Source: Eledone cirrhosa (taxonomy: Eukaryota). Taken from it: DNA of 64,000 nucleotides. The translations under genes and the position numbers were made by a program. The notes under the pieces are model-generated. The model had not been told where the DNA came from, did no database searches, and was given only the letters and a program-made list of their open reading frames with translations. Positions 47,296 through 58,032 of the stretch are shown piece after piece (position 1 is the stretch's first letter; every line of letters starts with the position of its first letter). The DNA lies in the NCBI GenBank assembly GCA_964016885.1, contig OZ024766.1, forward strand, positions 22,010,001 to 22,074,000, written 5' to 3'.

Positions 47296-47693
47296 TTACG
47301 CATCGCACACATTAGGAATCATATGATCTACTTTGCTATGGGGGAGATATCCAATCCCATAAGCGCCTAGGGTTAGCCCGCCCCCTAAAAATATGAACAG
47401 AAGGGTCTGGTTAAAGAACTTCATTCGAACATACATCGTTTGAAGTTCTCTCTGACTCAATTCTTCATCATCATCATCATCATCATCATCTTTTTTCTCT
47501 TTTTCCTCAGCAGCCACTTCAGGAGTGAACTTTTGTGTTTGGTCCATTGGGCGTGGCCTTATCCTCCGTTGGTTCCCGTAGCACGCAAAGAAAGCCTTAC
47601 ATGAGTTTTTTGATCTGTAGCGAGCGATTGATATAGTTATCGAACTAAATACCGATATCGCTGTTATTAATAATGCGTAGATGAGGATGTAAA
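47296..47693 (-). CDS. Cys-loop gene exon 6 (M3, short acidic loop, M4, stop)
   Basis: [59 protein letters not shown]. Confidence 0.88.
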
Positions 47694-50600
47694 CTGCAAA
47701 AGAAAAGAAAAAATATAAAAAAAAATATATATAATATATAAAATATATAAAATATAAAATATATAAAATATAAAAAAAATATATATAATATATAAAATAT
47801 ATAAAATATAAAATATATAAAATATAAAAAAAATATATATAATATATAAAATATATAAAATATAAAAAAATATATATAATATCTAAAATATCTAAAATAT
47901 AAAATATATAAAATATAAAAAAATATATATATATAAAATATATAAAATATAAAATATATAAAATATAAAAAAAATATATATAATATATAAAATATATAAA
48001 ATATAAAATATATAAAATATAAAAAAAATATATATAATATATAAAATATATAAAATATAAAAAAATATATATAATATCTAAAATATCTAAAATATAAAAT
48101 ATATAAAATATAAAAAAATATATATAATATATAAAATATATAAAATATAAAATATATAAAATATAAAAAAAATATATATAATATATAAAATATATAAAAT
48201 ATAAAATATATAAAATATAAAAAAAATATATATAATATATAAAATATATAAAATATTAAAAAATATATATAATATCTAAAATATCTAAAATATAAAATAT
48301 ATAAAATATAAAAAAATATATATATATAAAATATATAAAATATAAAATATATAAAATATAAAAAAAATATATATAATATATAAAATATATAAAATATAAA
48401 ATATATAAAATATAAAAAAAATATATATAATATATAAAATATATAAAATATAAAAAAATATATATAATATCTAAAATATCTAAAATATAAAATATATAAA
48501 ATATAAAAAAATATATATAATATATAAAATATATAAAATATAAAATATATAAAATATAAAAACAATATATATAATATATAAAAAATATATATATAATATA
48601 TATATATATATAGAGAGAGAGACATAATGCCCCCCACCCCCCACTGCAAAGTGGTCGTGGAGCTGCCACGGCAAAAAAGCACCTAGCCCACACTGTAAAG
48701 TGGTCGTGGAGTCGCCATAGCAAAAAAAGTACCCAGCCCTCACTGTAAAGTGGACGTGGAGGTGCCACAGCAAAAAAGCACCCAGCACTCCCTGTAAATG
48801 AGGTTGGTGTTAGGAAGGGCATCCAGCTGTAGAAATCAAGCCAGAATCAGTTCCCGTATGAGCAAGACAAGGTCAGCCGACCGGACACTGCCCACAACAG
48901 GACAACCCGTTTAACCCATGCTAGCGTGGAAGAACGGACGTAAAACGGTGATGATATATATGTATATATATATATATACAGTATTAAGGATACTATTTAT
49001 GGTTATGTATATACTAAAACTTTTTATAGTTATATATATTTTAAACCCTAAACAGTGAAAGACAGTAATTTATTACTACCTTATTACCAGTAAGATAAAT
49101 AGCTCAATGTAATAACATCAGTTGTTCTACAGAGCAGTTATATAGAAATCACATGAATCAAAGTTATGTTTAAACCATTTATTAGCTTACAATTGTTTCC
49201 TCCAAACCAAGGCATGGAGTCTTCGGAGCAATTTTTCAATGTATGTAAACAATCATTGAAAAATTGCTCCAAAGACTTCAAACCTCGGTTTGGATGAAAC
49301 AATTGTAAGCTAATAAATGGTTTGAACAGAACTTTGATTCATGTGATTTCTATATATATGTATATATATACATAAATTTTATATTACTTACAAACAATTG
49401 GTACAGTTTCAAATGTGATATTCTTGGGAAAATACTCCGTAAAGTGTACAAAATATGTGACAAAAGCCAGGAAATTGGTGATGCTCAGACAAATCTGCTC
49501 TCCACTTTCAGGAGGAGAGAAAAACGTGAGAGTTGCGATGAATATAAGCAGGCAACATGGAACCAAAATACTCAAGATGTAATACACAGGTTTACGCTTA
49601 GCAGTTATCTCATATAGTATATTATTTGAGATGTTTGCCGTGGAACACAATTTCGAGGAAAGTTTTGGTTTATACCAGTTCCGACTGGAATCTCCTTTTT
49701 CAATTACTTTCACCAGGTTCGAAGTCACATTAGCTATTGGGCTCTCGTTTTCCGGTATCAGGTTTTGAAGAAGTATCGTGCTTTTGATGTCCAGCGCACA
49801 CACCTGATCGTCGAACGGGAAAAGAAGCAGGTTGACTTTACACAACGTTGTAAACTTGTGGTAGACGACGGCTGTGATATCCCCGTCACAACTTAACTTC
49901 ACTGTTTCCAATTTAATGTTGTGCGGGGATTCGGCACTATTTTTTTTTTTTTTTTTTTGTTTTTTTTGTTTCGAGGTTGTTTTTTTTTTTTTTTTTTTTT
50001 TTTTTAATTGTTTTCGTTAAATTCAAGTTCAAACATATAGTTGAAGTTGAAGTCCGGGAGTTGGTTGTGGTGGTGGTGGTGGTGGTGGTGGTGGTAGTGG
50101 TGGTAGTGGTGGTGGTGGTGGTGATGTCAGGAAAGAAAGAAAGAAAGAAAGAAAGAAAGAAAGAAAGAAAGAAAAAAAAAATTAAAATTAAGAAGAGAAA
50201 ATGGCATATCGTGTATATATATATATATATATATATATATATATATATATATATATATACATACACACATAAAATTACATACACGCACACATATATATAG
50301 AGAGAAAAAGATATATATATATATTACATCATACATAAATATATATATATATATATATACACACACACACATATATATATATCTATATATGTATGTGTGT
50401 GTATATATATATATATCTGTGTGTGTGTATATATATATATATATATATATATACATATACATATATATACATATATATATATATATATATATATATATAT
50501 ATATATATATATATTACATCATACATAAATATATATATATATATATATATATATATACACACACACATATATATATATATATATATGTGTGTGTGTGTGT

Positions 50601-56600: not shown

Positions 56601-58032
56601 CTCACGATCTCCAGGCTGTCCAGTAATTTCAATTTTATTTTTATGTCAATCCTGTCTCTACCCTTTTCCAAGGGTACAATGTACGTATTGACCCTTTCTT
56701 TCAAATAGGATATCAAATCTCGAGTCGAATTAAAATAAGATTCATCTGCAATGGACAAGACACAACTAGACAAGATGTGGGGGACACATGCAACCATCTT
56801 TGTAATAATAAAGTAAGAAGTGTGGGACTGCTTGCTGAAAATTTTTTTATCCCGTTTGTAAAATAAGTTGGATTACTTAGAATAAATAATGAATGAATAT
56901 TACATAATTTATCTACTATATATAATATATATATATATATATATATATATATATATATATATATATATATATATATTATATATATATATATATATATATT
57001 ATGTATATATATATATTATGTATATATATATATTATATATATATATATAAATATTATGTATATATATATATTATATATATATATATTATGTATATATATA
57101 TATTATATATATATATATATTATATATATATATTATATATATATATATATTATGTATATATATATTATATATATATTATATATATATATATATATATATA
57201 TATATATATTATATATATTATATATATATATATATATATATATAATTATATATATATATATATATATATATATATATATTATATATATATTATATATATA
57301 TATATATATAATATATATATATATATATATAATATATATATATATATATATATATTATGTATATATATATATATTATATATATATATATATATATATATA
57401 TATATATATATATATATATATATATATATATTATATATAGTAGATATAACCCTCCCAAAGTATAACAACATATATATATACATATATATGTGTATATATA
57501 TATATATATATATATATATATTATTATATATATATATATGTGTGTGTATATATATATATATATATATGTGTGTATATATATATATATATATATATAATGT
57601 ATATATATATTATATATATATATATTATACATATATATATTATACATATATATATATATATTATATATATTATATATAATATATATATATATTATATATA
57701 TTATATATAATATATATATATATATATATATATATATGTATATATATATATATATATATACATATATATACATATATACATATATATACATATATACATA
57801 TATATACATATATATATACATATATATACATATATATATATATACATATATATATATATATATATATATATATATATATATATATATATATGTGTATATG
57901 TATATATAATTGTATGCATGTATGTATAATATGTATAATATGTAAGCATGTATGTATAAATATATATATACACTCACTGGCTTCTTGTACTCTCCACAGT
58001 AAAGAAAACAGTAATATATTTAGTAGAAGCAT
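47296..58032 (-). CDS. Divergent nicotinic acetylcholine receptor-like (Cys-loop) subunit, 6 coding exons, ~430 aa
   Basis: Signal peptide; Cys-loop [15 protein letters not shown]; four TM segments; PPESGEQ before M2; exon sizes 55/140/45/110 typical of nAChR genes; all phases join in frame (1293 nt). Confidence 0.9.
47705..48605. repeat. Almost pure A/T satellite with higher-order units
   Basis: (aaaatatataaaatat)n with a periodic atctaaaatatctaaa marker. Confidence 0.92.
48641..48955 (+). mobile_element. 5'-truncated SINE, 3 internal units
   Basis: Same internal unit; variant tail. Confidence 0.8.
49140..49355. mobile_element. Palindrome with variant hammerhead core (CCGAAGA..GAAACAATTGTA), family D
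   Basis: - arm: gct CCGAAGA ctcca..tggag GAA ACAATTGT A agc; + arm more decayed. Confidence 0.6.
49392..49936 (-). CDS. Cys-loop gene exon 5 (Cys-loop, loops B/C, M1, M2)
   Basis: [74 protein letters not shown]. Confidence 0.9.
51458..51567 (-). CDS. Cys-loop gene exon 4 (110 nt)
   Basis: [36 protein letters not shown]. Confidence 0.92.
51938..52002 (+). ncRNA. Type I hammerhead ribozyme motif, divergent family A member
   Basis: attttat CTGATGA ggacgtactg..cagtacctct GAAA tatgta TA ataaaat. Confidence 0.78.
53005..54940. repeat. 108-bp satellite (~6 copies) collapsing into a 30-bp subunit array (~42 copies)
   Basis: Same unit as 28982-32130, then (caccagtaaagatactataaacatttagtm)n. Confidence 0.96.
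55220..55264 (-). CDS. Cys-loop gene exon 3 (45 nt)
   Basis: [15 protein letters not shown]; ttttcag/gtgagt. Confidence 0.88.
55792..56590 (+). mobile_element. Full-length SINE, ~10 internal units
   Basis: A/B boxes, CORE-like segment, RTE tail (GAT)n. Confidence 0.9.
56606..56745 (-). CDS. Cys-loop gene exon 2 (140 nt)
   Basis: [46 protein letters not shown]; ttgcag/gtgagt. Confidence 0.88.
57978..58032 (-). CDS. Cys-loop gene exon 1 (signal peptide [18 protein letters not shown])
   Basis: ATG 58032; hydrophobic core; donor gtgagt, phase 1. Confidence 0.85.

What the first reader, a model, noticed from the sequence alone, without database searches (positions are those of the whole stretch)
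47296..58032. Intron-containing Cys-loop receptor lacking the acetylcholine aromatic box
Seen: intact ORF with Cys-loop and cation-type GEQ ring. Loop A reads WTPSLVVAN (no Tyr), loop B DIKSTIL (no Trp), loop C has no YxCC, and loop D has no Trp (HISGIVYL). The M3-M4 loop is short with a poly-Asp run, and M2 is aromatic-rich ([14 protein letters not shown]). Known: cephalopod chemotactile receptors are nAChR derivatives that lost these residues, but they are described as intronless and tandemly arrayed. This gene keeps ancestral nAChR exon sizes and has no paralog in the window. Inference: an orphan ligand-gated channel from an independent or basal divergent lineage, or a structural subunit.
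Basis: partly seen in the sequence, partly recalled or inferred. Interest (0 to 1): 0.72.

Follow-up and report, generated by a model that had tools for sequence, protein, structure and literature searches.

The report
Orphan octopus channel lacking acetylcholine site
This intact, spliced octopod gene encodes a nicotinic-receptor-like subunit that lacks the acetylcholine-binding residues; it belongs to a small unnamed family outside the octopus taste-by-touch receptors and likely forms a cation channel opened by another signal, with its tail predicted to be tied to the remodelled binding site.

Summary
Six GT-AG exons give a 430-aa Cys-loop subunit, and one spliced contig bridges all five introns. 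All named acetylcholine-box residues are missing.

The gene is not alone. Two intact paralogs with the same exon layout lie in tandem on another chromosome, and Octopus sinensis and O. bimaculoides each have one homolog. The five form a long-stemmed clade (100/100).

Placement inside the chemotactile receptors (CRs) is rejected. The best mixture-model trees also keep the family from being their sister, but AU tests do not reject sisterhood (p 0.45, 0.18) or grouping with canonical subunits (p 0.13). The introns are ancestral. Loss of the box is common (76 of 181 relatives), so it is not surprising alone. The poly-Asp run is a microsatellite, and the M2 aromatics sit at non-pore positions.

Family-specific features are Gln at M2 0', a conserved pocket poor in aromatic residues, and a lone loop-C cysteine conserved together with a C-terminal cysteine. 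That pair suggests a tail tethered to the agonist site, recalling the zinc-activated channel (untested).

Best reading: an independently derived orphan cation channel. Ligand and tissue are unknown.

The parts
57978..58032 (-). Exon 1 (55 nt coding): start codon and predicted signal peptide, residues 1-18
   Evidence: 52 nt seen as loose end of spliced contig
56606..56745 (-). Exon 2 (140 nt): N-terminal helix and beta1
   Evidence: same size in both paralogs
55220..55264 (-). Exon 3 (45 nt): beta2/loop D; Ile77 (55229-55231) at the Trp55-equivalent position
   Evidence: contig length arithmetic
51458..51567 (-). Exon 4 (110 nt): loop A; Ala115 (51463-51465) at the Tyr93-equivalent position
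49392..49936 (-). Exon 5 (545 nt): loop E, Cys-loop, loops B, F, C, M1, M2 and the M2-M3 loop
49798..49842 (-). Cys-loop C149-x13-C163
49777..49779 (-). Thr170 at the loop B Trp149-equivalent position
49645..49647 (-). Cys214, lone cysteine in a shortened loop C (28 residues from the conserved Trp to the pre-M1 Arg, versus 33 in alpha subunits); present in 5 of 5 family members
49435..49500 (-). M2 from -1' to 20': Glu263 (-1'), Gln264 (0'), Cys 2', Thr 6', Leu273 (9'), Thr 13', His 17', Glu 20'
   Evidence: prime numbering from established knowledge
47296..47693 (-). Exon 6 (398 nt with stop): M3, short cytoplasmic loop, M4 and extracellular tail
   Evidence: first 227 nt in spliced contig
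47467..47490 (-). (GAT)8 microsatellite encoding Asp367-374; absent from the homologs
47305..47307 (-). Cys428 of the C-terminal IP(N/D)xC motif; present in 4 of 4 full-length family members

Best explanation
The gene encodes a spliced Cys-loop subunit of a small family so far seen only in octopods, which kept the ancestral introns and lost the acetylcholine box, likely independently of the chemotactile receptors, and it likely forms a cation-selective pentamer gated by a non-amine signal at a remodelled subunit interface. Shown: gene structure, splicing, family membership, loss of the box residues, retained gating hardware (Cys-loop, pre-M1 Arg, M1 Pro, Glu -1', Leu 9', Pro 23') and purifying selection. 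Inferred: pentamer assembly alone or with its paralogs, cation selectivity, and insensitivity to acetylcholine and monoamines because no aromatic cage for a cation-pi contact remains. Predicted and untested: a Cys214-Cys428 disulfide that ties the post-M4 tail to loop C, so that the tail shapes or partly fills the pocket. Ligand class and tissue are unknown; a neutral or lipophilic small molecule in a peripheral tissue is my single best guess.
For: Splicing. Two intact paralogs with the same exon sizes at 52% identity, and an O. sinensis homolog at 40%. dN/dS about 0.2 against the paralogs and 0.10 in M2, with dS near saturation. M2 is the most invariant region, 20 of 33 positions. At 14 pocket-equivalent positions identity is 0.62 versus 0.50 for the extracellular domain, whereas 48 CRs show 0.29 versus 0.39, so the pocket is constrained rather than decayed. 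Family clade 100/100 with stem 1.5; CRs sit in a separate 38-row (85/99) or 26-row (99/98) clade with non-CR rows that include clam and snail proteins and, among its members, limpet proteins. Regrafting over 160 positions gave weight 0.93 elsewhere in the divergent clade, 0.009 as CR sister and 0.000 inside CRs. The model of the O. sinensis homolog (pLDDT 85.9) has the full nicotinic fold, Z 28.8, rmsd 4.0, 368 aligned. The two cysteines are invariant in otherwise variable regions (loop C region 5 of 30, tail 3 of 16, M4 0 of 19); the combination occurs in 6 of 181 proteins, 4 of them this family. In human ZAC a tail of similar length reaches loop C (PMC11707272 passages).
Against: There are no functional data and no tissue is known. 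AU tests do not reject family+CR (p 0.449; p 0.183) or family+canonical alpha/beta subunits (p 0.126). FastTree put the family next to the CRs (support 81). Pocket conservation rests on 4 sequences and 14 hand-picked positions. M4 of this copy is weakly hydrophobic (Kyte-Doolittle 1.59 versus 2.5-2.8) and lies outside the transcript contig. The tail is low-confidence in the model (pLDDT 60 then 42). The tail cysteine falls at about the position of muscle epsilon Cys470 (model 405 aligned to chain 468), which has been linked to surface expression rather than gating (PMC9260303 passages). The structure is of a 40%-identical homolog, not this protein.
Confidence: 0.55

Rival explanations
1. It is an accessory (structural) subunit: it binds no agonist and fills positions in heteropentamers with canonical alpha subunits or with CRs, tuning conductance or trafficking.
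For: Both the principal and the complementary box residues are gone. The best PDB sequence matches of the homolog are muscle beta subunits, at low identity. Grouping with canonical alpha/beta subunits is not rejected by AU (p 0.126).
Against: Non-alpha canonical rows in the alignment keep the loop B and loop D Trp (P0140, P0068). The family is fast-evolving and duplicated in a lineage-specific way, with dN/dS 0.72 between the tandem pair. The pocket positions are more conserved than the rest of the domain. No regraft beside a canonical-subunit row was among the 30 best of 160, and the whole outside class weighed 0.057.
Confidence: 0.22
2. It is the intron-bearing sister lineage of the chemotactile receptors, a relic of the gene from which the intronless CRs were retroposed, and it works as a contact chemosensor in suckers.
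For: AU p 0.449 and 0.183. FastTree adjacency. Equally short loop C, and shared M2 Phe 8' and Tyr 14'. Two paralogs lie on the CR chromosome. A preprint reports an unnamed group ('PSG unknown 3') sister to CRs (10.1101/2025.06.15.659772, section 8); whether it is this family could not be checked.
Against: Both careful mixture-model trees separate the two, and sister placement has weight 0.009. The family lacks the CR loop A Cys, and only 1 of 4 CRT1 pocket aromatics has an aromatic equivalent. The short loop C and Phe 8' also occur in non-CR divergent proteins. The paralogs lie 18 Mb from the array. Two long branches attract each other.
Confidence: 0.18
3. This copy is a decaying duplicate that is still transcribed but no longer forms a channel.
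For: Gly-rich, weakly hydrophobic M4, a microsatellite in the coding sequence and an extra cysteine at 133. The gene lies about 0.3 Mb from the contig end in repeat-rich DNA.
Against: Intact frame and splice sites, a spliced contig, dN/dS about 0.2, and a terminal branch (0.24) in the range of other family members.
Confidence: 0.05

Closest known systems
Octopus sinensis XP_036369744.1 ('acetylcholine receptor subunit beta-like') and O. bimaculoides XP_014780908.1 ('alpha-9')
   Same: Same family: 40% over the full length and 50% over the fragment. They share the GEQ motif, loop C Cys and pocket residues; the tail Cys is present in the full-length O. sinensis protein.
   Different: Automatic names only; 0 papers hold the accessions. 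The O. bimaculoides model is 172 aa and looks like exon 5 alone, read through its donor. This genome has three copies that group together apart from them (99/97).
Cephalopod chemotactile receptors (CRT1, PDB 8EIS/9E6B; CRB1, 8EIZ)
   Same: nAChR-derived, no acetylcholine box, short loop C, cation-type Glu -1'; same broad divergent clade (99/98).
   Different: CRs in this genome are single open frames of 383-431 codons, arrayed at C11:23.6-23.93 Mb. This gene has five ancestral introns, only 25-33% identity to them over exon 5, no loop A Cys and 1 of 4 CRT1 pocket aromatics.
Divergent lophotrochozoan nAChR-like expansions (PMC6896357; 'CR-like' clade of PMC13174522; 'PSG unknown 3')
   Same: Box loss and rapid lineage-specific duplication. 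The best placements include leech, polychaete and nemertean proteins and unnamed rows.
   Different: Many expanded molluscan genes are intronless; this family is not. No relative outside octopods exceeded 32% identity to the O. sinensis homolog. Identity with the named clades could not be checked because their supplements were unreadable.
Zinc-activated channel ZAC (PDB 8YX6)
   Same: Degenerate agonist site, short loop C and a post-M4 tail carrying a cysteine. In ZAC the tail reaches loop C and is auto-inhibitory (PMC11707272 passages).
   Different: The ZAC tail cysteine pairs with the M2-M3 loop, which has no cysteine here. The model fits nicotinic subunits better (Z 28.8 versus 24.0). Any likeness would be convergent.
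Canonical nAChR alpha and non-alpha subunits
   Same: Fold, intron positions and phases 1,0,0,2,1, and gating residues.
   Different: Trp55, Tyr93, Trp149, Tyr190, Cys192-Cys193 and Tyr198 are all absent, and the 0' residue is Gln instead of Lys or Arg.

Membership tests
Cys-loop pentameric ligand-gated ion channels | Neur_chan_LBD with C-x13-C loop | tested here: met
Cys-loop pentameric ligand-gated ion channels | Beta-sandwich plus four transmembrane helices | tested here: met
   Model of homolog P0001; M4 of the window copy is weakly hydrophobic
Cys-loop pentameric ligand-gated ion channels | Assembles as a pentamer and conducts ions | not testable with these tools
   Needs heterologous expression
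Cation-selective nicotinic-type channels | Glu at -1', no PAR motif | tested here: met
   ESGEQ in 5 of 5 family members; Gln at 0' is atypical
nAChR alpha subunits | Vicinal Cys-Cys in loop C with Tyr93, Trp149, Tyr190, Tyr198 | tested here: not met
Conserved nAChR non-alpha (beta-type) subunits | Loop D Trp55 and loop B Trp retained | tested here: not met
   Ile77 and Thr170
Conserved nAChR non-alpha (beta-type) subunits | Groups with canonical alpha/beta subunits | tested here: inconclusive
   Not in the best trees; AU p 0.126
Cephalopod chemotactile receptors | Intronless coding sequence | tested here: not met
   Five introns
Cephalopod chemotactile receptors | Nested in the CR clade | tested here: not met
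   All 22 placements inside CRs are at least 40 log-likelihood units worse, KH p at most 0.001
Cephalopod chemotactile receptors | Sister group of the CR clade (weaker claim) | tested here: inconclusive
   AU p 0.449 and 0.183; weight 0.009
Cephalopod chemotactile receptors | Lies in the tandem CR array | tested here: not met
   Gene on C27, paralogs at C11:41.9 Mb, array at C11:23.6-23.93 Mb
Cephalopod chemotactile receptors | CRT1-type aromatic pocket Y58, W122, F124, F192 | tested here: not met
   I77, V140, Y142, S220; other CRs also vary at these positions
Cephalopod chemotactile receptors | Sucker expression and activation by poorly soluble ligands | not testable with these tools
   Tissue of the spliced contig is not on record
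Zinc-activated channel (ZAC) | Tail cysteine paired with an M2-M3 loop cysteine | tested here: not met
   No cysteine in the M2-M3 loop of any family member
DopC and AChRB molluscan channels | Orthology to the characterised genes | not tested
   Reference sequences were not obtained; the family lacks an anion-type motif at -1'

The most novel reading that the evidence does not exclude
Octopods evolved a second, independent family of non-cholinergic sensory channels from nicotinic ancestors without retroposition. In it the C-terminal tail is disulfide-locked to loop C and plugs the emptied agonist site as a tethered self-ligand, so the channel is opened by displacing, reducing or cleaving its own tail, converging on vertebrate ZAC by a different cysteine pair.
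Probability: 0.13. Interest if true: 0.82.

Novelty: new variant of a known kind. Interest (0 to 1): 0.5.

Why it matters
CRs are the standard example of a neurotransmitter receptor turned sensor. A second octopod lineage that lost the same site but kept its introns gives an independent comparison for how Cys-loop receptors change ligand, and shows that retroposition was not required. If it is instead the CR sister, it marks the parent gene of the CR array. The conserved cysteine pair and Gln 0' give two cheap mutational tests. The O. bimaculoides record appears to be a one-exon fragment, so the family may be under-represented in published trees.

Tried and rejected
Single-sequence structure prediction of P0001 was unusable (pLDDT 41). 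The complex prediction of two extracellular domains with the last 32 residues of P0001 gave no answer (score 0.03, mark 0.34, alignments not used) and is not counted either way.

No run is on record as RNA; splicing is inferred from the contig itself. A DNA retrocopy as the source of that contig was considered: genome searches found no intronless copy of the family (counts are lower bounds).

Rejected as meaningful: the poly-Asp run (microsatellite) and 'aromatic-rich M2' as a pore feature (non-pore positions). Argonauta GAB1607972.1 joined the family in the quick tree but not in the careful tree, so it is not counted as a member. The FastTree closeness to CRs is treated as likely long-branch attraction but not dismissed.

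Exon 6 has no informative PDB match. The ESM Atlas top hit by features was a ZAC cluster at 0.97, effectively tied with nicotinic clusters at 0.96, so it was not used as evidence. No squid or cuttlefish member appeared; this is limited by database coverage. Earlier-findings look-ups gave nothing relevant. The primary CR papers and the first octopus genome paper were not held.
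Full report
Gene model. The interval holds a minus-strand gene of six exons (55, 140, 45, 110, 545 and 398 nt) with GT-AG introns, encoding 430 aa without internal stops. About two thirds of the span is tandem repeat. Exons 5 and 4 match Pfam Neur_chan_LBD; exons 2 and 6 alone match nothing. One 1119-nt contig of run X1 lies on exon 5 from end to end with loose ends matching exons 6 and 4, and on exon 2 with a loose end matching exon 1. 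The 151 nt between the two pieces equal exons 3 and 4 less the overlaps. Runs X2 and X3 read into the introns around exon 5. The gene is therefore spliced as modelled, in one sample of unrecorded tissue and library type. The last 171 nt of exon 6 are not covered.

Motifs. Against an alpha subunit, the Trp55, Tyr93, Trp149 and Tyr198 positions hold Ile77, Ala115, Thr170 and Ser220; Tyr190 and the vicinal cysteines fall in a five-residue deletion of loop C (residue labels are the standard nAChR numbering, recalled). Gating hardware is kept: Cys149-Cys163, pre-M1 Arg231, M1 Pro243, Glu -1', Leu 9' and Pro 23'. The M2 aromatics lie at 8', 11', 14', 15' and 18', which face away from the pore by standard numbering. 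The poly-Asp run is a (GAT)8 microsatellite that the homologs lack.

Family. The window lies about 0.3 Mb from the end of contig C27. Two paralogs lie 33 kb apart at C11:41.94-41.99 Mb, both intact with exons 55/140/45/110/545 and 52% identical to this protein. Database searches found two more members: O. sinensis XP_036369744.1 and a 172-aa O. bimaculoides model, XP_014780908.1. Among the best 150 of 7993 representative hits, all others were at most 32% identical. The genome's CR array is separate, at C11:23.6-23.93 Mb; one member matches CRT1 at E 3e-166, which identifies the animal as an octopod.

Introns. The acceptor before the large exon is in the same region and phase in 17 of 17 other nicotinic-type loci of this genome, and a GT donor follows the matching codon in 13 of 17. 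One canonical alpha gene has upstream exons of 152, 45 and 107 nt in the same phases. The structure is ancestral, so the family did not pass through retroposition.

Selection. dN/dS against the paralogs is 0.19-0.22 overall and 0.10 in M2, with dS above 1 and so imprecise. The tandem pair shows 0.72 with a patchwork of near-identical and divergent tracts, suggesting gene conversion. Fourteen pocket-equivalent positions are 0.62 identical in the four full-length members versus 0.50 for the extracellular domain; in 48 CRs the order is reversed. The sample is small.

Phylogeny. Of 241 sequences, 206 were kept for FastTree (35 over 620 aa dropped); it put the family beside the CRs with support 81. 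On 86 hand-picked rows the mixture model gave a family clade at 100/100 with stem 1.5, inside a 54-row divergent clade (99/98) that also holds the CRs, but the CRs fell in a 38-row subclade (85/99) without the family; the bootstrap had not fully settled. On 57 rows without the longest branches that subclade had 99/98; its named non-CR rows are limpet, clam and snail proteins. Regrafting the family on 160 branches of the fixed 86-row tree rejected all 22 positions inside CRs and gave weight 0.009 to CR sister, 0.93 to other positions in the divergent clade and 0.057 outside it. Against this, AU tests with free rearrangement did not reject family+CR (p 0.449; p 0.183) or family plus four canonical alpha/beta rows (p 0.126). 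Non-membership in CRs is shown; independent origin is favoured, not shown. The reference rows are search hits, mostly unnamed or auto-named, and no labelled squid or cuttlefish sequence was included.

How unusual. 76 of 181 full-length relatives lack Trp55, Tyr93, Trp149 and the vicinal cysteines, 27 of them neither CR nor family (six are near-copies; alignment-based count). In oyster only 13 of 132 nAChRs keep the principal site (PMC6896357, passages). Box loss alone is ordinary. Two features are family-specific. First, Gln at 0' occurred only in the two Octopus members among 273 loose pattern matches, 247 of which were Lys or Arg, and it is present in all three copies here. Second, a lone loop C cysteine (5 of 5) occurs with a C-terminal cysteine (4 of 4 full-length), in regions otherwise poorly conserved.

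Structure. An alignment-based model of the O. sinensis homolog (pLDDT 85.9) matches nicotinic subunits best. Its M4 ends at residue 396 and the tail cysteine is 11 residues later. In human ZAC, His406, 12 residues after the tail cysteine, occupies the agonist site, and deleting the tail makes the channel constitutively active (PMC11707272, passages). The model aligned to ZAC up to that residue (319 of 324 aligned), but the tail is low-confidence. The same cysteine also falls near muscle epsilon Cys470, which affects surface expression in HEK cells and function only about twofold in oocytes (PMC9260303, passages). The disulfide is thus a plausible prediction, and its role may be folding rather than gating.

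Literature. Passages read: PMC13174522, PMC11526382, PMC6896357, PMC9068888, PMC11707272, PMC9260303, 10.1101/2025.03.03.641191 and 10.1101/2025.10.28.685082. For 10.1101/2025.04.02.646353 I read the abstract, section 6 and the first part of the supplementary legends; for 10.1101/2025.06.15.659772, passages and section 8. The accession search found 0 papers, and topic searches showed no description of this family in what I read. Supplements I could not see may hold it: the 41 O. vulgaris channels screened in oocytes, the 'CR-like' clade and 'PSG unknown 3'. The primary CR papers were not held, so their trees are unchecked.

Verdict. A real, spliced, constrained orphan Cys-loop subunit of an apparently undescribed family so far seen only in octopods. 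It is a new variant of a known kind, most likely an independently derived non-cholinergic cation channel (0.55). The testable extra is the predicted tail-to-loop-C tether. Interest 0.5.

Noticed in passing
window 22054-22293, 23111-23362, 24890-25195, 41472-41720 (+); also 11546-12458: Scavenger-receptor cysteine-rich (SRCR) half-domain exons on the plus strand (Pfam PF00530), likely one multi-SRCR gene converging on the channel gene. A 188-bp tandem repeat of 4.8 copies at 11546-12458 appears to carry an SRCR half-exon.
   Followed up: partly
L063 (G000 C7:64.07 Mb): Another intron-containing nicotinic-type gene without vicinal cysteines; it falls in the subclade that holds the CRs and is a better-placed candidate for an intron-bearing CR relative than the window gene.
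   Followed up: partly
P0107 (Argonauta hians GAB1607972.1): A further long-branched orphan subunit lacking the box; no close match in this genome (best identities at most 30%).
   Followed up: partly
L062 (G000 C23:18.65 Mb): An intronless CR outside the array whose upstream frame closely resembles that of the CR at C11:23.859 Mb, suggesting a transposed copy.
   Followed up: no
L058 (G000 C11:23.864 Mb): A CR copy interrupted by one in-frame TAG, plus further CR fragments nearby.
   Followed up: no
L033-L038 (G000 C11:41.939-41.988 Mb): The two paralogs alternate between near-identical and divergent tracts (nucleotide identity 0.5 to 1.0 per 20 codons), suggesting gene conversion with diverging N-terminal, loop F, M2-M3 and M4 segments.
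   Followed up: partly
P0002 (O. bimaculoides XP_014780908.1): The record seems to be exon 5 alone read through its splice donor, so the full gene is probably mis-annotated.
   Followed up: no
window 53005-54939 and 28976-32119: A 108-bp satellite in intron 3 (6.6 copies) that resolves into a 30-bp sub-repeat (42 copies); the same 108-bp unit forms a 29-copy array elsewhere in the window.
   Followed up: no
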